A stretch of 57,521 bases of DNA from an uncultured virus (IMG/VR IMGVR_UViG_3300020207_000005) (IMGVR_UViG_3300020207_000005), one strand, 5' to 3'. Counted from the stretch's first letter, positions 36,150-43,691 are shown. Translations and numbers: made by a program. The notes: generated by a model from the letters alone, not told the origin.

Positions 36150-37339
36150 ATAAAAGCCTCAAGTGTATCGCATTTTTCTACGTAGTTATTTTTCTGTTGA
36201 TGATTATACTGAACTACGTAATCAGTATCAACCATTTGTAATTTACCCTCTAAGTATTTCTTTACTTCCGTAGCCATGTCTCGGGCTGTTTGTACGGGTA
36301 CGTTTTGACAGATGTGGTTCGCCGATTTTTTGGGGTTGAGTAATTCAAAATCGTTAGGTAATCCCATAATCGCCATAGCTTCGCGATAATTAATATACCT
36401 ATCATCATCAGGGTGAGTAAGACAAGTAGGATAGTGCCCAACAAAGGCACCAATATAATCCTTAGGAATAATCGTCCCACGTCGCATAATATTTCCGCCT
36501 GCTTTGAGTTTCTCATACTTGTAATTACACTTCTCGACTTCTTTTTCGTATCCATTTTGTTCCATCCATTCGCCGACTTGCTTGTAATCATAACCGCTAC
36601 GTTCTATATATGAAAACATGTCTTGTGCTCTTACTCTTTGTGGTTCAGCAATTTCAAAGAATTCTTTATGAGTAATTCCACCATGTATATGGTCTAATAC
36701 AAACTTATAATAAAGGTCATCTTTACTTGGAGTTTTTGGATTGATTGGGTCAGTAAAACTATTTGAGCCTGCTACACTTCGAATAACATCTTCGATTTTA
36801 GTATGTTCTTTATTGTACCAACTTAAAAGAGGAGTACGTTCGTCTTTCCAAAAGAAATAGAATGAACGCTCTCGAATTTGTGGACCACCATGTAATAGTG
36901 ACCTTGTTCGATATACACTCATAGTATATCCGTTTTCTTTTCCAATCTGTTTTAGTTTGTTTCTTACTGTATCACCAATTTTACCTGCAAACCCTGGAGC
37001 ATTTTCTCCCCAAAATACTTTTGGTTTTACATTTTCAAGTACATGTCTTGCGGTAATTTCCATCCATTGGTTATTTGGATTATCATCACCAAATCCGTGG
37101 GATAGCTGAGATAGTCCAGCACATGGACATACAGAAGATACTACATCTACACTCTCAGAGGGATTCTCACCCTTATCTAGAACATAGTACGGAGTACCAC
37201 TATAGTAATTACGGGCATGAGCATCATTTGCTTCGAATGCCTCGTATGACATCATATACGTTGGCTTTTCACCAAACGCTAATTCTGAGCCAATAGTTTC
37301 ACCACCGATAAGTGGTACGATAGATGCGTGTTTAATCAT
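36146..37339 (-). CDS. DNA cytosine-C5 methyltransferase-like protein (atypical motif I)
   Basis: CPCAGLS (motif IV), ENAP (VI), PQIRERSF (VIII), R.INYREAMAIMGLP (IX), QNVP (X); motif I reads SIVPLIGG. Confidence 0.8.
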   Translation of the reverse strand: MIKHASIVPLIGGETIGSELAFGEKPTYMMSYEAFEANDAHARNYYSGTPYYVLDKGENPSESVDVVSSVCPCAGLSQLSHGFGDDNPNNQWMEITARHVLENVKPKVFWGENAPGFAGKIGDTVRNKLKQIGKENGYTMSVYRTRSLLHGGPQIRERSFYFFWKDERTPLLSWYNKEHTKIEDVIRSVAGSNSFTDPINPKTPSKDDLYYKFVLDHIHGGITHKEFFEIAEPQRVRAQDMFSYIERSGYDYKQVGEWMEQNGYEKEVEKCNYKYEKLKAGGNIMRRGTIIPKDYIGAFVGHYPTCLTHPDDDRYINYREAMAIMGLPNDFELLNPKKSANHICQNVPVQTARDMATEVKKYLEGKLQMVDTDYVVQYNHQQKNNYVEKCDTLEAFI

Positions 37340-38562
37340 ACAAAAAAATCCTCAAGGTCAACCTCACTAGAAATACGTTCTTCCATTCCATCTAATAGTG
37401 AAATTCTTTCTTCGACGTATTTAGTCACAGTAAAATATTTTAAAAGATTACGGCTTATGTTTCTCCTATCTTCAGGAGTCACCTTAATACTTTCGTCTAT
37501 AGCTTTATATATGTCATCTGCATCGTTGAAGTCTGCGGTATAGTGTTTAACATTAGCACGTAAAAGATATTCTGAGGTTGCGTGTATCATTTGTTGTGTG
37601 TGGTCTAATTGTTTAACTAAAATAACTGGAACTACTCCATAGATTCCAGCTTCAAATGCGGTATAACCAAATCCCTCATGAAAACAAGGTAGTATAATAC
37701 TTTGAGATGTTTTAATTGCTTCGAATAATTCTTCATCTGGAAGATTTTCCATATAAGCATTTGCTTTCTTTTGAAGATTTTCAAAGTATCTTCCAGTCTT
37801 ATCTCGTCTTGGGTCACGTACACCATAATGAACAATCGTGTTTTGTGGATTATTATATCCGTATACTTTGTGGTGGAACTTATCTGTAGAGTATCTTCCT
37901 ATGATTGCTGACTTATTCTCAACTTGTTCAATATCTTCAGATGTAACTTTTTCGTCAGTCCAAACAAAGTGTTCGATGAATCCATCAAAAGCATCATCAC
38001 CTCTTAATGGAATATCTTCATAACCAGCTTTAATGGCACGCTCATGAATGTCATTCATCTTTTGAATTGAGTAGTTTGAGTTCGTAGCAATATAACACAT
38101 ATTCCTATCTGTCTTTCTCATTCTACGAATAACATCACTGAATCCATAACACCACATTAAATCAATAACATCATGAATAATAAACATAATTCTTTTATTC
38201 TTGACGAGTTGATTGAGTGTAGTAATCATAGAAACACTATGACAATGAGCGATGATATAATCGTGGTCTTCAATTATATCCTTAACACTTTCTAAATATC
38301 TTTTAATATAGTGTCTACTAACACGAGAAGGATTCTTACCTTCTTTCATTGCTTGGTCTTTTGCACCAAGGGAGTTTACACCATAGTGCATGTATTCATA
38401 TCCTGGGTCTACTACTCTCCCACAATACATATAAGTTGTTTGATAACCTAATTTGCTGAAGGCTCTGGCATCAAGTTTAGAACTCTTTTGAAGTCCAGAA
38501 CGTACTACAGAACCATCGAAAGTTTCTGTGAGATTATCAATAACTAAAACTGATTTTTTCAT
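37336..38562 (-). CDS. GT-B glycosyltransferase, candidate DNA glycosyltransferase
   Basis: LPCFHEGFGYTAFEAGIYG (E-x7-E GT-B motif); next to dCMP-modifying genes. Start placed at ATG 38562. Confidence 0.78.
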   Translation of the reverse strand: MKKSVLVIDNLTETFDGSVVRSGLQKSSKLDARAFSKLGYQTTYMYCGRVVDPGYEYMHYGVNSLGAKDQAMKEGKNPSRVSRHYIKRYLESVKDIIEDHDYIIAHCHSVSMITTLNQLVKNKRIMFIIHDVIDLMWCYGFSDVIRRMRKTDRNMCYIATNSNYSIQKMNDIHERAIKAGYEDIPLRGDDAFDGFIEHFVWTDEKVTSEDIEQVENKSAIIGRYSTDKFHHKVYGYNNPQNTIVHYGVRDPRRDKTGRYFENLQKKANAYMENLPDEELFEAIKTSQSIILPCFHEGFGYTAFEAGIYGVVPVILVKQLDHTQQMIHATSEYLLRANVKHYTADFNDADDIYKAIDESIKVTPEDRRNISRNLLKYFTVTKYVEERISLLDGMEERISSEVDLEDFFV

Positions 38563-38570
38563 ACCCATAT

Positions 38571-38599
38571 ATTATACCATACTTTTATCTAAATGTCAA
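38571..38599 (-). promoter_or_regulatory. Sigma70-type promoter, probably giving a leaderless GT-B mRNA
   Basis: TTGACA-17-TATAAT with TGG extended -10; ATG 8 nt downstream of the -10 hexamer; no SD. Confidence 0.8.
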
Positions 38600-39050
38600 C
38601 AAAATCAACATCAATTAATGCTTCTCTAAATAACGAATGACTTAATTCCCAAGAATGAATCCACTTTTCTCTTGTCTCATCGACAAATCCCATAGAATCC
38701 ATTGAGGGCATTACAACTCGTTTTGTTCCTACTTGAATAACACCTTTAGCGCATTCACTACAAACGGGCAATCCCCATACATATAGCGTTGAATCTTTTA
38801 AAGTGATTCCGTGATATGTAGCATTATATATTGCGTTCTTCTCAGCATGTACTACATATGCATATTTGATATCTCTATCTAAATACCTATCTTCACTATC
38901 TCCAATACCTTGAGGAAACCCATTATAACCAGTTGCTAATATTCTACGTTCATCAGATACGAATACTGCACCAATTTTTTTAGATGGGTCTTTACTCCAA
39001 GTTGAGATTTCTCTCGCTATATTAAGGAATCTTGAATCCCATTTATACAT
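38589..39050 (-). CDS. cd: dCMP deaminase
   Basis: SKDPS..IGAV, TGYNG, HAEKNAI and PVCSECAK motifs. Confidence 0.92.
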   Translation of the reverse strand: MYKWDSRFLNIAREISTWSKDPSKKIGAVFVSDERRILATGYNGFPQGIGDSEDRYLDRDIKYAYVVHAEKNAIYNATYHGITLKDSTLYVWGLPVCSECAKGVIQVGTKRVVMPSMDSMGFVDETREKWIHSWELSHSLFREALIDVDFVDI

Positions 39051-39261
39051 AATAACTTTTCACTGTTTTAAATGCTTCAATGTGTTTTTGTATTTCAGCT
39101 AAATCTTCTTGAATGTTAGTTGAGAAATGAGCGTAGTTTAAACCACCATCGTCATTTGCTCTGTCTTCGAACGCTTCTTCGAAATGTTCAATTGCATTAT
39201 TAAGACTTTCAACCACAATTTCATCACATTGTTCATCTGTAACTTCAACCTTTATTGCCAT
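39043..39261 (-). CDS. Hypothetical protein
   Basis: 72 aa; in-operon overlap with both neighbours. Confidence 0.65.
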   Translation of the reverse strand: MAIKVEVTDEQCDEIVVESLNNAIEHFEEAFEDRANDDGGLNYAHFSTNIQEDLAEIQKHIEAFKTVKSYYV

Positions 39262-39916
39262 CAATATATTCCTGTATAAAATTAAAGTGTCTTTCGTATA
39301 CGTGAAAGTTAGAAGCGGTCCAAATTAATTCACCAACTTCAACACCTAAGTCATTTGCAAGTCTTTCTTGAACGTGTTTTGCCCAAGCATAATCATTATT
39401 ATAACCAAAGACTGCATCGTTTGAACGCATAATATAATGCGAAACTAATCTATTATTTCTGATATAGAACGTATTAGCATAAGTACACATAAAATCGTTC
39501 ATACCATTTTTGTTAAAATCAGTATGCATGCTTGGTCGATTATAAATCATTGTCGCACGTCTTGAGTTTGGATTAGACTTTAATTCTTGTTTTACTTTTT
39601 GGTATTGATTACCATTCTCATCAGAATAGATACACCAACCATAGTTTGAATTAATCTTACCTTCTTCAGATGAGATGTCTTTCCAAATTTGTGGAGTTTC
39701 ACCAGGGATGTCATCAACATACAGTGATTGCATTTCATACCAACGCAATTCACGTTTGATGTATTCATAAGCTGGTTTACGAATAACATAATCTTCATCA
39801 GCAATAAATGTGGCACCAATGACTTCAACAGTCTTAGCACCTGTTCTATCAATAACCCAATCACCTTGAAGAAAATCAGTTACGATTTGATTACGAATAT
39901 CTCTAACTCTTAACAT
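39245..39916 (-). CDS. gp42: dCMP hydroxymethylase (T4 gp42-like, thymidylate-synthase fold)
   Basis: INSNYGW, DFMCT, MRSNDAVFGYNNDYAW and HVYERHF motifs. Asp at the specificity position indicates dCMP rather than dUMP. Confidence 0.85.
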   Translation of the reverse strand: MLRVRDIRNQIVTDFLQGDWVIDRTGAKTVEVIGATFIADEDYVIRKPAYEYIKRELRWYEMQSLYVDDIPGETPQIWKDISSEEGKINSNYGWCIYSDENGNQYQKVKQELKSNPNSRRATMIYNRPSMHTDFNKNGMNDFMCTYANTFYIRNNRLVSHYIMRSNDAVFGYNNDYAWAKHVQERLANDLGVEVGELIWTASNFHVYERHFNFIQEYIDGNKG

Positions 39917-40170
39917 TAAATTGTTTCCAATAGTGTTTCAATATCATCTAGTTCAGCTACAACTGCTGGTAGATTTTGTTTATGATAAATCCTAGCCATT
40001 TTACGTAGAATATTTTTAGGAATATCTACATCGTCAGCTAAGGCATTAATTGCTTCTTTTTGAAAATCACGTTCGGCTTCTACTCTAGTAAATGAATTAC
40101 TCATTTCTTCCATAGCACCTTTAATTCTTTTCTTATCTTCATCACTTGAAGGTATAATCACATTACTCAT
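39916..40170 (-). CDS. dsDNA-binding protein (T4 DsbA/GapR-like)
   Basis: EMSNSFTRVEAERDFQKEAI...IPKNILRKMARIYHKQN. Confidence 0.65.
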   Translation of the reverse strand: MSNVIIPSSDEDKKRIKGAMEEMSNSFTRVEAERDFQKEAINALADDVDIPKNILRKMARIYHKQNLPAVVAELDDIETLLETI

Positions 40171-40514
40171 TATTTAGTCCTCTTATTAAATGCATCATTG
40201 CGGGAATCTTGGCCTGGTATTTTACCACGACAAAATGAAACAAAGAAACTCGCATAGTTAATTAAATCTTTTGCTGAATCTTCAAGAGATTCGAAGTTTG
40301 GATTATAATCATCACTTTGCATAGCTTCCATAACCGATTTCATACGTAGCATTTTTGCATGCATGATATCGTGAATAGTTACAATACCATTAGGATAGTA
40401 TTGTGCTTGTTGTACAGTTGAATTAGGATTCTGATAATCCCTAGATTTTTTCAACTGAAGGTCGATACATTCTTGAAGAACGTTGACCGCTTCGGGGTTA
40501 TTATTTTTAGGCAT
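40170..40514 (-). CDS. Nucleotide-modification-associated domain 1 (Nmad1/DUF1599-like, MazG-related)
   Basis: LQLKKSRDY...KMLRM...ESLEDSAKDLINYA pattern. Confidence 0.7.
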   Translation of the reverse strand: MPKNNNPEAVNVLQECIDLQLKKSRDYQNPNSTVQQAQYYPNGIVTIHDIMHAKMLRMKSVMEAMQSDDYNPNFESLEDSAKDLINYASFFVSFCRGKIPGQDSRNDAFNKRTK

Positions 40515-41850
40515 TAGTTTCCCTCATAGTTAAAATCATTTTATATTCATCGAGAGTAAGAGTTCCCATGTTTCTGTTATGTTCGCTTCTTACCATCGCA
40601 CCATTCTCAATTACACTCTTACCACCTTGTGACCAAGGAGTATCATGTCCAAATACAGCATCGTCAAGTTCTAAAGGTTTTCCATCAATTGCACAAACAT
40701 AACCTTGTGCTGCTAATGCTTCTTCTCTATCGAGTTTACCTAGAGAACGTTTCGTATCTAAAACTGTAATTCCATCTGGTATTATATCACAGTTTCCGTG
40801 AATTGTAAACTGTTTATATACAAGTTTCTGTGCATTACCTGCAGCTGAGTGTCTTCGATACTTTCTGACAAATTCCTTAACAAAGAAGGTGGTATCATTG
40901 TATTCAATCGTTTCTTTTTCGAGAGACGTATCATTTTTGCCAGTAAGTAGTGTATAAGTTTTCATAAAGAACTTAAAGAAGTCCTCATCATTATCAATTT
41001 TAAACTTATCGAATTGTTCAACCAATCCAAAGTAATACACAGAAAAAGCCGAGAAGATTGCGTCATTTAAACCAAACTTACGGAATACACGTAATTTTAA
41101 AGCAGCGTCTAAGAAATCGTCTACTCTTGATTGTACAGTTTTAGGAATCTCATTATCTTCACGACATAGTGTTTCGATTTCTGTTTGACCAGCATCAACT
41201 AAACCTTTACCCATAGAACGGATTATTGCGATAGCAACAAACTCGTCCCATCTACGTCTTGGGTTGGGTTGGTCATCAACCCAGTTTGGCACAACAACTT
41301 TACCATCAGGTTTAATTTGTTTTTCGAACAACGGATGTGGTTCATTAGAATACTCGCGTACATACGAAGTTTTTCTACGTATATACTCACACACTTTAGA
41401 TTCTTCATCAGACATTACCATTTCCATAAAGTTGGTTGGTGTTGTCGTGTTGATATTTCTAAATAGACGTGAAGCTTCAGAAGAAGTACATACTCTTACG
41501 TCAACTGGTATATCGACATCACTCAGATTAAAATCTGAATCAATGTATTTCTCACCATCGATGAGAATCTTTCCAGTATAGTAAGCTTTAAGAGCTCGAC
41601 AGCGGTGTCCGCCATCAATTACAAGATAATCACAACCATAAATCTTTTGTGCTTCGACATCATTGCGAATGTCTCGAATGGTTAACATTCCAGCACCATA
41701 ACCGGACATGAGTCCTTTGATAATTGCGATTGATTTTTTTACGCCGGAAGAGACGGGAGGTCTCTGGCCAATTGGGTCGGGATTTAATTTTCCCGTATTA
41801 AGAAGGTCTACAATCTCTTGCGCAGACATTACTTTTACGTTATATTCCAT
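40507..41850 (-). CDS. DUF262/ParB-like N-terminal domain + C-terminal HNH nuclease (GmrSD-like architecture)
   Basis: PIGQRP, LVIDGGHRCRAL and LFRNIN (DUF262 QR/DGxxR/FxxxN motifs); CAIDGKPL...GHDTPWSQGGKSVIENGAMVRSEHN (HNH). Confidence 0.8.
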   Translation of the reverse strand: MEYNVKVMSAQEIVDLLNTGKLNPDPIGQRPPVSSGVKKSIAIIKGLMSGYGAGMLTIRDIRNDVEAQKIYGCDYLVIDGGHRCRALKAYYTGKILIDGEKYIDSDFNLSDVDIPVDVRVCTSSEASRLFRNINTTTPTNFMEMVMSDEESKVCEYIRRKTSYVREYSNEPHPLFEKQIKPDGKVVVPNWVDDQPNPRRRWDEFVAIAIIRSMGKGLVDAGQTEIETLCREDNEIPKTVQSRVDDFLDAALKLRVFRKFGLNDAIFSAFSVYYFGLVEQFDKFKIDNDEDFFKFFMKTYTLLTGKNDTSLEKETIEYNDTTFFVKEFVRKYRRHSAAGNAQKLVYKQFTIHGNCDIIPDGITVLDTKRSLGKLDREEALAAQGYVCAIDGKPLELDDAVFGHDTPWSQGGKSVIENGAMVRSEHNRNMGTLTLDEYKMILTMRETNA

Positions 41851-42113
41851 AATCGTTTCTACTCCGATTTATAAGTTAGTTCAATGACCATCAACTAGGT
41901 CACATATAGGTCTCGGCAGAGGTTGTCCGTTTTGGTGTTCCTTACTTTCACTCGGTTGATATACCTCGAAACTTTCGTCGCTTGGTATATCTGTTGGTGT
42001 TTCAGGGGTTCCATATTAGGAGCAGTATTCCCTCTACCAAGGTGATTGTTGGTTCGTTACCGTCGTGGGTCCTAAACTTTCGTCTCGCCGTCATAGCCTA
42101 TTCCCAACAATCT
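41851..42113 (-). ncRNA. Putative structured non-coding RNA/long 5' leader upstream of the DUF262-HNH gene
   Basis: About 46% GC by hand count (41891-42110). Helices 42112-42104/42052-42044, 42041-42031/41922-41912 and 41991-41984/41965-41958; two GAC-GAAA-GTTT tetraloop hairpins; begins at the predicted TSS. Confidence 0.7.
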
Positions 42114-42118
42114 AGTAT

Positions 42119-42172
42119 ATTATACTATAGTTTTTCGTAAATGTCAACTGTTTTTGTGAAAAAAGTGCAACT
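42119..42172 (-). promoter_or_regulatory. Strong sigma70-type promoter with A/T-tract upstream element
   Basis: TTGACA 42147-42142, 17 bp spacer, TATAAT 42124-42119; upstream CACTTTTTTCACAAAAACAG. Confidence 0.85.
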
Positions 42173-42174
42173 TT

Positions 42175-42399
42175 TTACGGAAGTCTTGGTTGTGGTTTAA
42201 TAACGAAATTGTTTTCAACGATGTAAAGTTTATCTTCAGCTTCAGCAAGTTTTGTAACTTCTAAATCGATTGTTTCGATAATACCAGGATGTTCTGCGAC
42301 ACCCACTTGTTTTTCTAACAATACATCAATATTTACTTTATGCTCTGCAATTTGAGCTTTATATTTCGCTACTAGAGCGTTTACGATTGGCTCTTTCAT
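42175..42399 (-). CDS. Conserved small hypothetical protein of marine T4-like phages
   Basis: NIDVLL...VGVAEHP.IIETID.E...LA...DKL motif. Confidence 0.75.
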   Translation of the reverse strand: MKEPIVNALVAKYKAQIAEHKVNIDVLLEKQVGVAEHPGIIETIDLEVTKLAEAEDKLYIVENNFVIKPQPRLP

Positions 42400-42827
42400 T
42401 CTATTCTCCCATTAAATAAATTCTTTAAGAAGAGGCCGTGGTTACCTTCGTGATTAGGAGCTTCCCAACCTTCAGGTTTTACTAAATCTGGAACACCTAA
42501 GGGATTAGGTCTAGATTCTTTCACACCAACTTCTTTTGCCATATTAGCATTGAGAACTCTATCCCATGCTTCATGTGGATTAACGCCATAAGCATCAAGT
42601 GTTCCTATGGCAACAACACATAGGTCGATTAATCCATCGACTATTTCTTCAGGGTCTCCTTCCTTAAACGCTTTCTTCGTTTCAGTTAGTTCTTCCTCAA
42701 GAAAATTAATTCTAAATTCTAAAAACTTTTTAAGCTTCTCAACATCATCACGATTATCCCAAACCCATTCACGAGTTTTATATTTCGTTTGCATGTTGTG
42801 AATGTCTTCTACCCAGTTTCTACTCAT
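42396..42827 (-). CDS. MazG-like/PRA-PH nucleoside triphosphate pyrophosphohydrolase
   Basis: FLEEELTE...EEIVDGLIDL...V..ANMAK...DLVKPEGW. Start moved to ATG 42827. Confidence 0.82.
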   Translation of the reverse strand: MSRNWVEDIHNMQTKYKTREWVWDNRDDVEKLKKFLEFRINFLEEELTETKKAFKEGDPEEIVDGLIDLCVVAIGTLDAYGVNPHEAWDRVLNANMAKEVGVKESRPNPLGVPDLVKPEGWEAPNHEGNHGLFLKNLFNGRIE

Positions 42828-43128
42828 TTGGATATCCTTGTGCAATATAAACACCAATCATACCAATATCACCTTCAGATAGCATACCTGCTGTCGGCCA
42901 CATCATTGCAGATTGTGGTCCTACAACTTCTTTATTTTTATATGCTAATAATTTTGAAATGATTTCATCAGCAGATTGTCCTTGTAATTTAGGACCGATT
43001 CCACCTTGACCCTGAGGTCCGTGGCAAGCTGCACAAGTATTCATTGTTGAACGAATAGGTGCAAATCTATCTTCAGCATTAGCTGTATTAGAGATAAGTA
43101 ATGCTGCAATTACAATTAAATATTTCAT
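42820..43128 (-). CDS. Class I c-type cytochrome (c553/c4-like) with signal peptide
   Basis: Sec signal MKYLIVIAALLISNTANA, CAACHG heme motif, GPKLQGQ, distal Met (SAMM), LSEGDI. Confidence 0.88.
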   Translation of the reverse strand: MKYLIVIAALLISNTANAEDRFAPIRSTMNTCAACHGPQGQGGIGPKLQGQSADEIISKLLAYKNKEVVGPQSAMMWPTAGMLSEGDIGMIGVYIAQGYPNE

Positions 43129-43662: not shown

Positions 43663-43691
43663 ATTATAACACATAATAGCGCATTTGTCAA
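43663..43691 (-). promoter_or_regulatory. Sigma70-type promoter
   Basis: TTGACA-17-TATAAT with TGn. Confidence 0.85.

What the first reader, a model, noticed from the sequence alone, without database searches (positions are those of the whole stretch)
40507..42172. Candidate RNA-associated nuclease system: ~260-nt structured ncRNA transcribed with a DUF262/ParB-HNH gene
Seen: in a genome with almost no intergenic space, a perfect TTGACA-17-TATAAT promoter (42147-42119) is followed by ~260 nt without a credible gene, about 46% GC against a much more AT-rich background. The first helix starts at the predicted +1: GATTGTTGG (42112-42104) pairs with CCAACAATC (42052-42044). A second domain is closed by CTTGGTAGAGG (42041-42031)/CCTCTGCCGAG (41922-41912), which pairs fully only with two G-U wobbles and so argues for RNA-level structure. 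It encloses GATATACC/GGTATATC. A TGACC/GGTCA hairpin then precedes the GGAG SD of a DUF262+HNH ORF. Established: HNH nucleases with dedicated structured RNAs exist (IscB/omegaRNA-HEARO), whereas DUF262-HNH (GmrSD-like) proteins are known as RNA-independent modification-dependent nucleases. Inference: this RNA may be a cofactor, guide or antitoxin of the nuclease, or a new cis-regulatory element. I do not recognise it as a known family.
Basis: partly seen in the sequence, partly recalled or inferred. Interest (0 to 1): 0.9.

Follow-up and report, generated by a model that had tools for sequence, protein, structure and literature searches.

The report
Portable phage RNA modules, hitchhiking nuclease
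The gene-free stretch is genuinely folded RNA, built from two portable RNA modules that uncultured marine T4-like phages also place ahead of tRNA, ribosomal-protein and other genes, so it looks like a new phage RNA family of unknown job and not a partner of the nuclease gene behind it.

Summary
A perfect TTGACA-17-TATAAT promoter is followed by 262 nt without a credible ORF. Its first 69 nt (motif A, 42112-42044) is a real structured RNA: in 16 distinct sequences, 14 of 19 pairs show compensatory changes. It matches no Rfam family and no GenBank phage. It is not tied to the nuclease. The same motif sits behind early promoters ahead of tRNA arrays, a bS21 gene, an unrelated 148-aa gene, or as a stand-alone terminated RNA. 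Within the nuclease lineage it decays: it is diverged in L327, reduced to a stub in L008, and absent from the 59% and 50% identity clades. The second domain (motif B, 42041-41912) is a related module that replaces A upstream of an orthologous gene elsewhere. The ORF is a ParB/DUF262 plus HNH protein sitting in an insertion hot spot: 13 of 80 related loci carry it, while others are empty or hold other inserts. Best reading: an autonomous phage small-RNA or leader module family of unknown function, with a homing-endonuclease-like nuclease expressed by read-through and carrying its own covarying hairpins near the ribosome-binding site. The RNA-guided or cofactor idea is not supported.

The parts
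42159..42176 (-). A/T-only hairpin (AAAAAGT..ACTTTTT plus a T run) directly after the stop codon of the 74-aa ORF and before the -35 box. This is a PeSL-like terminator/promoter arrangement.
   Evidence: Read from the sequence. It has too few G-C pairs for the terminator scan. Other motif loci have G-C-rich terminators in the same place, for example L147 and L169.
42119..42147 (-). Early-type sigma-70 promoter, TTGACA-17-TATAAT.
   Evidence: 12 of 12 matches. The same promoter block is kept in L004-L008. An early promoter is also present at the empty site in nuclease-less relatives.
42044..42112 (-). Motif A (domain 1). P1 clamp of 9 bp, internal loop GAAUAG/AACGAA, 3-bp P2 (GCU/GGU), internal loop AUGAC/ACGAC, and a variable P3 hairpin with a GAAA loop.
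   Evidence: Covariance model R1 scores 62.1 bits and is the only hit in the window. Covariation statistics are, on alignment A2.
41912..42041 (-). Motif B (domain 2). An 11-bp closing helix with two G-U pairs, a GAAUAC... 5' junction, and conserved CCUGAA and GUAAGGAACACC blocks.
   Evidence: Also present in L150 (5' of motif A) and alone behind a promoter in L182/L230-type contigs. The three closing helices have unrelated sequences but are all complementary. z = -5.0. The interior fold is not resolved.
41958..41991 (-). Inner hairpin of motif B (GATATACC...GGTATATC). It is variable and dispensable.
   Evidence: Absent from L150 and L230. One RNA-library contig (X20) replaces 41952-41991 with 6 letters (tables 5 and 5c).
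41885..41902 (-). Nuclease-linked hairpin TGACC/GGTCA, about 20 nt upstream of the SD.
   Evidence: A hairpin is kept at this place, with different sequence, in L004 (TTGCC/GGCAA), L327 and L277.
41851..41869 (-). Mini-hairpin AAUCG-GAGUAGAAA-CGAUU enclosing the SD GGAG (41865-41862), directly before the ATG.
   Evidence: Present in the MFE fold. The AUCG/CGAU stem becomes UACG/CGUA in the 59% identity clade, L277, which is two compensatory changes.
40507..41850 (-). 447-aa ParB/DUF262-like (N-terminal) plus HNH (C-terminal) nuclease gene. Its stop codon overlaps the start of the 114-aa gene.
   Evidence: It shows presence/absence polymorphism at this site.

Best explanation
The 262-nt leader is a chain of separable elements, not one nuclease-specific RNA. 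Elements 1 and 2 (motif A, 42112-42044; motif B, 42041-41912) are two related members of a new, so far phage-only family of rod-shaped RNAs. Each has a covarying P1 clamp that starts at or next to the transcription start, an invariant purine-rich internal loop (GAAUA on the 5' side, ACGA(A) on the 3' side), and a distal part that differs between A and B. Shown: they are autonomous promoter-driven modules, found once per phage record searched, and they sit in front of very different downstream features in different phages. Inferred: they act as a small structured RNA whose invariant loops are the binding surface for a conserved protein or ribonucleoprotein partner. That partner probably belongs to translation or RNA processing, because tRNA arrays and a bS21 gene are the commonest neighbours. 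Also inferred: the RNA is released by termination at the U-run that follows P1 before protein genes, or by processing before tRNAs. Element 3 comprises the hairpin 41902-41885 and the SD-enclosing mini-hairpin 41869-41851. It belongs to the nuclease gene and probably limits its translation, as in other phage homing-endonuclease genes (inferred). The ParB/DUF262-HNH gene is a free-standing, homing-endonuclease-like insertion in a hot spot between two conserved genes. It is expressed by read-through from the promoter that drives the RNA.
For: Real structure: on 16 distinct sequences, 88.4% of cells pair against 66.4% in shuffles (0 of 500 reach it) and 25-43% when partners are slid. P1 has compensatory changes in 11 of 12 pairs and P3 in 3 of 4. 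G26-U68 is an invariant G-U pair, which fixes the strand. Not nuclease-bound: of the 16 distinct sequences, 6 precede protein genes. These are the DUF262-HNH gene (window, L004), a 148-aa phrog_27048 protein (L072, L179), bS21 (L150; Pfam Ribosomal_S21, 1.8e-16) and the 114-aa homologue without a nuclease (L176). Six lie 0.25-0.65 kb upstream of tRNA genes, 2 have that same architecture on contigs that end early, and 2 are terminated non-coding units. Promoter-proximal: 12 of 16 have a promoter match of at least 10 of 12 whose -10 box ends 3-16 nt before P1. One copy per record: 1 hit in the window (next best 11.5 bits), 1 in the 107-kb record G001, and 1 each in 4 further viral records. Decay in the nuclease lineage: R1 hits 7 of 11 nuclease loci in full, gives a 19.9-bit stub in L008, and finds nothing in L009-L011. 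L327 has three changes in otherwise invariant loop positions (46.7 bits), and L277-L280 have only promoter, hairpin and SD. A and B interchange: motif B alone precedes a protein 51% identical (E 2e-51) to the one motif A precedes in L146. Both occur in tandem in either order (window A-B; L150 B-A). U-rich tails (5-8 T in the 9 nt after P1) follow P1 in L004, L146, L150, L176 and L179, all ahead of protein genes. There are 0-4 T in the other 11, a group that includes the window itself (3 T). Hot spot: of 80 loci with the 114-aa gene, 13 carry the nuclease and 67 do not. Among those 67, some have the 74-aa and 114-aa genes 65-110 nt apart with only a promoter between them, and others hold 0.6-1.8 kb of other ORFs, some with GIY-YIG-like motifs by eye. 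Nuclease domains: VIA-align Z 7.9 to the ParB N domain (residues 4-138), Z 7.3 to BrxU, Z 6.5 to Cas9 HNH (residues 370-447).
Against: No direct evidence exists for transcript ends, for a discrete small RNA, or for any binding partner. The RNA-library data are contigs only. At the 74-aa/114-aa locus the motif is found only together with the nuclease: 7 of 13 nuclease loci against 0 of 67 without. The independent reading must therefore assume that RNA and nuclease arrived together, by co-transfer of flanking DNA. The window copy has no U-run or terminator after either module, so here the modules may stay part of the mRNA. Two of 16 instances (L151, L176) have no recognisable promoter, and L176 lies inside an operon. 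The interior of motif B is not resolved, and its kinship to A rests on short junction sequences. The loop columns of motif A were partly fixed by my search patterns. A pattern that left GUAACGAAC free still returned only that sequence, but it yielded just 5 new records with 2 distinct sequences. All carriers are uncultured contigs, most of them fragments.
Confidence: 0.55

Rival explanations
1. The modules are purely cis-acting 5' leader modules. The P1 clamp at +1 protects the transcript from 5'-end-dependent decay. With the U-run it also forms an attenuator that sets how much transcription reaches the downstream gene. The conserved loops bind a factor that tunes this.
For: P1 starts 3-16 nt after the -10 box in 12 of 16 instances. 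The L008 lineage lost the core but kept a P1 hairpin at the 5' end. A U-rich tail follows P1 specifically before protein genes. In the window the modules are physically the 5' UTR of the nuclease mRNA.
Against: Only one copy was found per record, although the window has at least three perfect early promoters within 7 kb. A general stabiliser would be expected on many transcripts. Two units (L151, L171) end in terminators with no gene behind them. L176 is internal to an operon. Simple 5' protection does not need invariant loops.
Confidence: 0.25
2. Motif A, and perhaps motif B, is a riboswitch aptamer in which the ligand-stabilised P1 doubles as the terminator stem. The ligand might be nucleotide-related, given the nearby MazG-like, thymidylate-synthase-family and deaminase genes.
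For: The architecture is aptamer-like: a P1 formed by the two ends, invariant junction nucleotides, covarying stems and a variable distal hairpin. A P1-plus-U-run arrangement occurs in 5 contexts. Tandem related modules occur (window, L150). L176 places the motif directly before the 114-aa gene, which matches the C-terminal part of a phage nucleotide-hydrolase profile (phrog_18404).
Against: The downstream genes share no pathway: tRNAs, bS21, a nuclease and unknown proteins. Neither the window nor 10 of the other instances has an expression platform. No Rfam riboswitch is similar.
Confidence: 0.07
3. The modules are put-like processive antitermination RNAs. The nascent rod binds RNA polymerase and lets it read through terminators and Rho-dependent sites in long untranslated transcripts.
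For: The position is promoter-proximal. The modules head long untranslated, highly structured transcripts such as tRNA arrays, and the 262-nt leader here. The neighbouring tRNA operons in L147, L155, L163 and L169 carry a boxB/boxA-like leader (the boxA consensus is recalled). This suggests antitermination matters in these phages.
Against: The RNA is a single rod, not the two-stem-loop put architecture (put recalled from memory). In L147-type loci the motif lies upstream of a second promoter that has its own boxA-like element. A U-run directly after P1 would make it a terminator and not an antiterminator. L151 and L171 end at strong terminators.
Confidence: 0.06
4. The RNA is a dedicated cofactor, guide or antitoxin of the DUF262-HNH nuclease, analogous to the IscB/omega-RNA pair.
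For: The RNA is co-transcribed and immediately upstream of the nuclease. At the 74-aa/114-aa locus the motif appears only in nuclease-bearing genomes: 7 of 13 against 0 of 67. Other nucleases lie near the motif elsewhere: HNH_5 ORFs in L141 and L161, and Endonuclease_NS in L150.
Against: Fourteen of 16 distinct motif sequences have no DUF262-HNH gene beside them. Nuclease clades at 59% and 48-51% identity lack the motif. L008 keeps a stub and L327 has mutated 'invariant' loop bases. No variable guide-like segment is present. There is no HEARO or other Rfam match. The protein has no RuvC or other IscB hallmark.
Confidence: 0.04
5. The stretch is a decayed ORF or chance structure in AT-poor spacer DNA.
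For: Two small ORFs (39 and 30 aa) overlap it.
Against: Compensatory changes in 14 of 19 pairs, and an invariant core shared by phages whose stems have nothing in common. L004 lacks the part that holds the 39-aa ORF.
Confidence: 0.01

Closest known systems
PeSL cassettes of T4-type phages (promoter-early stem-loop; Arbiol et al. 2010, PMC2839356, passages read; Comeau et al. 2014, PMC4122927, abstract and passages read)
   Same: A near-consensus sigma-70 early promoter combined with a stem-loop. Located in variable regions of T4-like genomes. Associated with insertion, deletion and replacement of single genes between conserved neighbours. The window has an A/T hairpin plus promoter after the 74-aa ORF, and the site is polymorphic in 80 relatives.
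   Different: The PeSL stem-loop is a simple G/C or A/T hairpin that overlaps or flanks the promoter and acts as a terminator for upstream transcription. Motif A and motif B lie downstream of +1. They are 69 and 130 nt long, have invariant internal loops, and occur once per record instead of dozens of times.
Stable small RNAs of the phage T4 tRNA gene cluster (RNA C and RNA D, species 1 and 2; recalled from memory and named in earlier scan notes)
   Same: Phage-encoded, tRNA-sized structured RNAs of unknown function, co-transcribed with tRNA genes from early promoters. At least 6 of 16 distinct motif A sequences sit 0.25-0.65 kb upstream of tRNA genes.
   Different: No sequence or structure similarity was detectable: model R1 finds nothing in the T4, KVP40, HTVC008M or Syn33 genomes. 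In this window the motif is not in a tRNA cluster; no tRNA was found in the 57 kb.
RBS-occluding hairpins of T-even homing-endonuclease genes (I-TevI, mobE and seg genes; recalled from memory)
   Same: A free-standing nuclease gene in an intergenic hot spot, transcribed from an upstream early promoter, with a small hairpin at the ribosome-binding site. The mini-hairpin 41869-41851 encloses GGAG and covaries with the 59% identity clade.
   Different: The stem is only 4-5 bp and leaves most of the SD in the loop. Translational control was not tested. The nuclease is ParB/DUF262 plus HNH, a domain combination known from type IV restriction enzymes and not from homing endonucleases.
HEARO / omega-RNA of IscB
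   Same: A structured RNA next to an HNH-containing ORF on a mobile element.
   Different: No Rfam match. The protein lacks RuvC. The RNA is found mostly without the protein, and the protein often without the RNA.
GmrSD / BrxU / SspE family (DUF262 N-terminal domain plus a C-terminal His-Me nuclease)
   Same: The N-terminal ParB/Srx-like fold with a DGGHR block. GmrSD_N hits in 13 of 29 homologues. Z 7.3 to BrxU and 7.0 to SspE. A C-terminal beta-beta-alpha-metal nuclease.
   Different: The C-terminal domain matches HNH domains of the Cas9 and Gme type, and no DUF1524 hit was obtained. The gene is phage-encoded and sits inside the phage's own nucleotide-modification cluster. Dependence on DNA modification is unknown.
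HK022 put RNAs (recalled from memory)
   Same: A promoter-proximal structured RNA with conserved unpaired bases at the head of early transcripts.
   Different: A single rod in place of two stem-loops. It is often followed by a U-run or a terminator. No functional test was done.

Membership tests
HEARO / IscB omega-RNA | RNA matches the Rfam HEARO covariance model | tested here: not met
   No hit in the window at the gathering threshold. None in 41700-42300 at E<=10.
HEARO / IscB omega-RNA | The RNA is kept next to the nuclease across the nuclease's homologues | tested here: not met
   R1 gives 7 full hits and 1 stub in 11 nuclease loci, and none in the 48-51% clade. None in L277-L280, the 59% clade.
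HEARO / IscB omega-RNA | The protein has the IscB architecture (split RuvC plus HNH) | tested here: not met
   Residues 1-150 have a ParB/Srx-like fold and residues 370-447 are HNH. No RuvC family appeared in the Pfam scans.
GmrSD-type (DUF262 plus His-Me nuclease) proteins | N-terminal DUF262/ParB-like domain with a DGQHR-type motif | tested here: met
   D79 G80 G81 H82 R83 are invariant in 29 sequences. PF03235 hits 13 of 29 homologues, best E 7.2e-6, though not the window protein itself. Z 7.9 to ParB and 7.3 to BrxU.
GmrSD-type (DUF262 plus His-Me nuclease) proteins | C-terminal DUF1524-type His-Me finger nuclease | tested here: inconclusive
   No DUF1524 hit. The C-terminal residues 370-447 match HNH domains at Z 5-6.5. 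PADLOC REase_II matches residues 368-424 at 1.1e-5. H402, D403, H424 and N425 are conserved.
GmrSD-type (DUF262 plus His-Me nuclease) proteins | Cleaves modified (e.g. glucosyl-hydroxymethylcytosine) DNA | not testable with these tools
   This needs enzyme assays.
Free-standing homing endonuclease | Presence/absence polymorphism at one intergenic site between conserved genes in related genomes | tested here: met
   13 of 80 loci with the 114-aa gene carry the nuclease. The other 67 are empty (promoter only) or hold other inserts.
Free-standing homing endonuclease | Cleaves the empty site of nuclease-less relatives and is copied into it | not testable with these tools
   This needs cleavage and co-infection assays.
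PeSL cassette | Strong sigma-70-like early promoter with an adjacent simple stem-loop, flanking variable genes | tested here: met
   12 of 12 promoter match. An A/T hairpin lies at 42176-42159. The site is polymorphic. This covers the promoter block only, not motifs A and B.
PeSL cassette | Many near-identical copies per genome | tested here: inconclusive
   Three perfect promoters lie within 7 kb, and weak promoter-block matches occur elsewhere in G001. Copies were not counted genome-wide.
Riboswitch | Conserved aptamer with covarying stems | tested here: met
Riboswitch | Expression platform and a coherent set of regulated genes | tested here: not met
   A U-run follows P1 in only 5 contexts and not in the window. 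Downstream features are heterogeneous.
T4 tRNA-cluster stable RNAs (RNA C / RNA D) | Similarity in sequence or structure to the T4 RNAs | tested here: not met
   R1 finds nothing in the complete T4 genome at E<=1. This search had no positive control inside that set.
put-type antitermination RNA | Two adjacent stem-loops acting on RNA polymerase in cis | tested here: not met
   The consensus is a single rod with three coaxial helices. Action on polymerase is not testable here.

The most novel reading that the evidence does not exclude
Motifs A and B are a family of phage-made trans-acting RNAs whose invariant purine loops capture a host translation or RNA-processing factor, for example a ribosomal or RNase component. 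Under this reading many uncultured marine T4-like phages carry one copy in their tRNA/bS21 'translation island'. The nuclease beside it in this window would then be a homing endonuclease that spreads the RNA gene as cargo.
Probability: 0.2. Interest if true: 0.75.

Novelty: new variant of a known kind. Interest (0 to 1): 0.45.

Why it matters
It removes an attractive but unsupported claim: there is no evidence here for an RNA-guided DUF262-HNH nuclease. What remains is a well-supported, uncatalogued structured RNA family. It has an unusually rigid core and freely varying stems, and it is spread across uncultured marine and estuarine T4-like phages. It travels as a module with early promoters, tRNA arrays, a phage ribosomal-protein gene and selfish nuclease genes. 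Phage tRNA islands hold many such orphan RNAs, and none has a known function. A small, sharply defined motif like this one is a tractable starting point for binding-partner pull-downs and structure work. The locus also gives a clean natural series (empty site, nuclease only, nuclease plus stub, plus A, plus A and B). That series shows how regulatory RNA modules and homing-type nucleases are shuffled in T4-like genomes.

Tried and rejected
- Rfam: 0 gathering-threshold hits in the window, only two noise rows at E<=10, and only tRNAs in 16 motif-bearing loci.
- blastn of the region and of an 80-nt motif copy against 50,697 GenBank phage records found no match.
- tblastn of the nuclease against the same set found no match.
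- R1 on T4, KVP40, HTVC008M and Syn33 gave 0 of 4. There was no positive control in that set.
- The pattern scan of 185,579 species genomes returned 11 stretches. None has a P1, and all score 22.7 bits or less. So I have no evidence for the motif in cellular genomes at this pattern.
- Literature: no paper holds the core string. In the catalogue of candidate structured RNAs in viruses (PMC10690425; passages and searchable supplements seen) the string was not found. Three supplement files could not be searched, so the motif may be listed there without a name.
- RNA libraries: contigs from four metatranscriptome runs cover the leader and the gene. In two runs (X13, X16) the deeper contig (depth 19 and 16) ends at 42158 and 42181, and the contigs upstream have depth 0-8. 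Contigs cannot show starts, strands or levels, and DNA carry-over is possible. I therefore draw no conclusion on the transcription start.
- Pfam, PDB-sequence and Foldseek searches with the nuclease alone gave nothing significant. Only homologue scans and VIA-align gave the domain calls.
- The automatic alignment and consensus fold of motif B misaligned the window's extra hairpin, so I discarded it. Single-sequence folds of the L150 and L230 copies are not better than shuffles (z -0.9 and -1.5), so the interior of motif B stays unresolved.
- The domain 2 pattern scan found only one further lineage.
- The genome search on metagenome loci is not possible, so copy number in the 200-kb contigs was not checked.
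- I considered K-turn, loop E/sarcin-ricin, T-loop, UAA/GAN and 5S or 16S rRNA mimicry for the loops by eye. None fits cleanly, and none is claimed.
Full report
**1. Setting**

The window is part of an uncultured T4-like myovirus.
- Its family-B DNA polymerase is 45% identical to those of cyanophages S-RIM12 and Syn33.
- The nearest held record is a 107-kb viral contig estimated to be 50% complete.
- DNA and RNA libraries that hold the stretch come from salt-marsh and marine samples.
- Genes are tightly packed on the minus strand.
- Around the finding lies a nucleotide-metabolism and DNA-modification cluster. It comprises a MazG-like pyrophosphohydrolase (42396-42857), a 74-aa ORF (phrog_1811) and the 447-aa ORF. 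These are followed by a 114-aa ORF that matches the C-terminal part of the same 'hydrolase' profile as the MazG-like protein (phrog_18404). Then come a DsbA-like protein, a thymidylate-synthase-family protein, a dCMP deaminase and a weak glycosyltransferase match.

**2.

- The promoter is a 12 of 12 consensus match.
- The 262 nt between the predicted +1 and the ATG hold no credible gene.
- They are 44.3% GC against 35.3% for the window.
- They fold better than all 200 shuffles (z -3.3).
- No Rfam family matches.

**3. Relatives of the nuclease split the leader into parts**

Eleven viral loci encode relatives of the ORF. Aligning their upstream regions and scoring them with a covariance model gave the following.
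- The three identical loci, and four loci at 75-76% protein identity, keep the promoter and the first domain. P1 changes from GATTGTTGG/CCAACAATC to ATCTGGTGG/CCACCAGGT.
- None of the 74-76% loci (L004-L008) has the 130-nt second domain.
- L008 (74%) keeps only the P1 stem around a 7-nt loop.
- The three loci at 48-51% have none of it.
- The small hairpin before the SD persists with compensatory changes (TGACC/GGTCA becomes TTGCC/GGCAA).

**4. Domain 1 (motif A) exists apart from the nuclease**

Exact-pattern scans were run of viral contigs, metagenome contigs and species genomes.
- The motif was found in 12 viral stretches with the full pattern.
- It was found in 21 of 34 metagenome stretches (62-84 bits with model R1; the other 13 score 22 bits or less or give no hit).
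- It was found in 0 of 11 stretches from cellular genomes.

Sixteen distinct sequences were aligned. For the structure P1-loop-P2-loop-P3:
- 88.4% of cells pair, against 66.4% in shuffles (0 of 500 reach it) and 25-43% when partners are slid by 1-3 columns;
- 11 of 12 P1 pairs and 3 of 4 P3 pairs show double changes;
- the G-U pair in P2 is invariant, which identifies the transcribed strand.

The two internal loops (GAAUWG opposite AACGAA; AHGRC opposite AYGAC) do not vary. Part of that invariance was imposed by my patterns. A pattern that left the last nine loop bases free still returned only the same sequence, though it gave just five new records with two distinct sequences.

Further results:
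- the model finds one copy in the window (62.1 bits; next best 11.5), one in G001, and one in each of four other viral records;
- it finds none in T4, KVP40, HTVC008M or Syn33;
- blastn finds none among 50,697 GenBank phage records.

**5. Contexts of the 16 distinct sequences**

Twelve have a promoter match of at least 10 of 12, with the -10 box ending 3-16 nt before P1. L150 has motif B between its promoter and motif A. L151 and L176 have no recognisable promoter.

Downstream features:
- Protein gene (6). The DUF262-HNH gene follows in the window and in L004. A 148-aa phrog_27048 protein follows in L072-type contigs (after 200 nt of further GC-rich RNA) and in L179. Ribosomal protein bS21 follows in L150 (Pfam 1.8e-16). 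In L176 a 53%-identical homologue of the window's 114-aa protein follows, with no nuclease between.
- tRNA genes 0.25-0.65 kb downstream on the same strand (6): L076/L138, L155, L161, L169, L172 and L178.
- The same two-promoter architecture on contigs that end early (2): L147 and L163.
- Non-coding units closed by strong terminators (2): L151 and L171.

A U-rich tail (5-8 T in the nine bases after P1) follows the motif in L004, L146, L150, L176 and L179, all ahead of protein genes. The other 11, including the window, have 0-4 T.

**6. Domain 2 (motif B) is a second, related module**

- Its conserved blocks (GGAAUAC, CCUGAA, GUAAGGAACACC) recur in L150, where B lies 5' of A behind one promoter.
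- They also recur alone behind a promoter in five L182/L230-type contigs.
- The three closing helices share no sequence but are all complementary.
- The window's inner hairpin (41991-41958) is absent from the other lineages. One RNA-library contig replaces it with six letters.
- B shares with A the junction next to P1 (GAAUA on the 5' side, ACGA(A) on the 3' side).
- In L230, motif B precedes a protein 51% identical (E 2e-51) to the one that motif A precedes in L146. So A and B substitute for each other at an orthologous position.
- The interior fold of B is not resolved.

**7. The locus test**

Eighty viral loci carry a homologue (78-100% identity) of the 114-aa gene.
- tblastn finds the nuclease in 13 of them.
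- In the other 67, the 74-aa and 114-aa genes are either 65-110 nt apart with only an early promoter between them, or separated by 0.6-1.8 kb of other ORFs, some with GIY-YIG-like motifs by eye. The site is therefore an insertion hot spot.
- R1 hits 7 of the 80 loci, all nuclease-bearing: three window-type loci, two L004-type loci, L327 (78% nuclease identity; 46.7 bits; three substitutions in otherwise invariant loop positions) and the L008 stub.
- Four complete loci of the 59% nuclease clade (L277-L280) have only promoter, a different hairpin and the SD.
- The SD mini-hairpin changes from AUCG/CGAU to UACG/CGUA between the window and L277.

Two conclusions follow.
- At this locus the RNA came with the nuclease cassette.
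- Within the nuclease lineage the motif is eroding, while the two small hairpins near the ribosome-binding site are maintained. That is the opposite of what a cofactor would show.

**8. The protein**

- The window protein has no Pfam hit of its own.
- Of 29 aligned homologues, 13 hit GmrSD_N/DUF262.
- A DGGHR block and the residues H402, D403, H424 and N425 are conserved.
- PADLOC matches a restriction-enzyme model over residues 368-424.
- The AlphaFold model has pLDDT 86.
- Its residues 4-138 align to ParB N domains (Z 7.9, rmsd 2.9, 99 residues), to BrxU (Z 7.3) and to SspE (Z 7.0).
- Its residues 370-447 align to HNH domains (Z up to 6.5). These Z values are middling, and Foldseek E-values were above 0.01.

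**9. Interpretation**

Shown:
- the leader is modular;
- motifs A and B are conserved RNAs of a family absent from Rfam 15 and from the GenBank phage records searched;
- they are not specific to the nuclease;
- the nuclease occupies a polymorphic hot spot.

Inferred:
- The modules behave like a single-copy small-RNA gene with its own early promoter. Its invariant loops are a recognition surface for a conserved partner.
- The frequent tRNA and bS21 neighbours point to translation or RNA processing.
- The 3' end is made by the P1-plus-U-run terminator before protein genes and by processing before tRNAs.
- The nuclease is homing-endonuclease-like, is expressed by read-through, and probably carried the RNA along as flanking DNA. 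Recalled from memory: T4 SegB sits in and promotes inheritance of the tRNA region, and T-even endonuclease genes use hairpins at the ribosome-binding site.

A purely cis role as a 5' stabiliser or attenuator is the main rival. Riboswitch and put-like antitermination readings are less likely. The cofactor or guide reading is unlikely.

**10. Comparison with what is known**

- The promoter block fits the PeSL concept of T4-type phages (PMC2839356, PMC4122927). The PeSL stem-loop, however, is a simple terminator hairpin at the promoter, not a 70-130-nt RNA with invariant loops downstream of +1.
- The nearest functional analogy is the orphan stable RNAs of the T4 tRNA cluster, but no similarity is detectable.
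- Earlier notes of this scan describe other uncatalogued promoter-proximal or tRNA-island RNAs in other phages. None matches this sequence.
- A published catalogue of candidate viral structured RNAs (PMC10690425) may contain the motif unnamed. The parts of its supplements that I could search do not.

**11. Verdict**

This is a real and apparently undescribed phage RNA family with strong structural support and unknown function. The headline hypothesis of an RNA-associated DUF262-HNH system is not supported. Interest is moderate.

Noticed in passing
L147, L155, L163, L169 (about 15-110 nt after motif A; e.g. L155 minus strand, about 1560-1660 in the orientation): Directly after motif A lies a second consensus promoter. 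It is followed by a small hairpin (GGAAUGAAAAUUCC) and a CGCUCUUUGA(A/C)AA box, then a long structured leader and tRNA genes. This resembles the tandem promoters and boxB/boxA antitermination leader of bacterial rRNA operons (boxA consensus recalled from memory). It suggests that these phage tRNA operons recruit host Nus factors.
   Followed up: no
L141 (minus strand, about 2570-2665 in the orientation); also L138 and L161: A conserved tRNA-like element of about 95 nt: an 8-bp acceptor-like stem, a perfect T arm GGTTCGATTCC, and an extended middle part. It lies directly before tRNA-Pro. Neither ARAGORN nor the Rfam tRNA model calls it.
   Followed up: no
L171 about 1556-1700 and L151 (minus strand) after motif A: A further shared non-coding module (CCUACC...AGAGUAAGACUC...GGAU) follows motif A and ends in a strong intrinsic terminator. 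Together with motif A it forms a stand-alone RNA gene of about 200 nt.
   Followed up: no
window 37336-42857 and loci L273-L352: The DUF262-HNH gene sits inside the phage's own nucleotide-modification cluster. That cluster holds a MazG-like protein encoded as two separate genes (153 aa and 114 aa, both matching phrog_18404), a thymidylate-synthase-family enzyme, a dCMP deaminase and a possible glycosyltransferase. A GmrSD-like nuclease encoded by a phage that probably modifies its own DNA could act against host DNA or differently modified rival phage DNA.
   Followed up: partly
L287, L288, L309, L312, L317, L328, L329, L340 (between the 74-aa and 114-aa gene homologues): The same intergenic site holds other inserts. 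These include a 165-aa ORF family, a 167-aa ORF and a 169-aa ORF with GIY-YIG-like motifs by eye. Each is preceded by further small ORFs. This is a hyperplastic site in this phage group.
   Followed up: partly
L150 1324-1617: A phage-encoded ribosomal protein bS21 with a 30-residue arginine/proline-rich N-terminal extension. It lies directly behind the tandem motif B - motif A leader and next to an Endonuclease_NS gene.
   Followed up: partly
L009 and L011 (nuclease homologues at about 50% identity): In these phages the DUF262-HNH gene lies next to a DUF3310 protein and a D12-class N6-adenine DNA methyltransferase. This is a restriction-modification-like neighbourhood without any of the RNA modules.
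   Followed up: no
window 42820-43128 (minus strand): A 102-aa ORF with a signal-peptide-like N terminus and a CAACH haem-binding motif. It is a c-type-cytochrome-like auxiliary gene between the glutaredoxin-like and MazG-like genes.
   Followed up: no
window 38571-38599 and 43663-43691 (minus strand): Two more perfect TTGACA-17-TATAAT promoters, both with an extended TG, lie within 7 kb. Neither is followed by motif A or B.
   Followed up: partly
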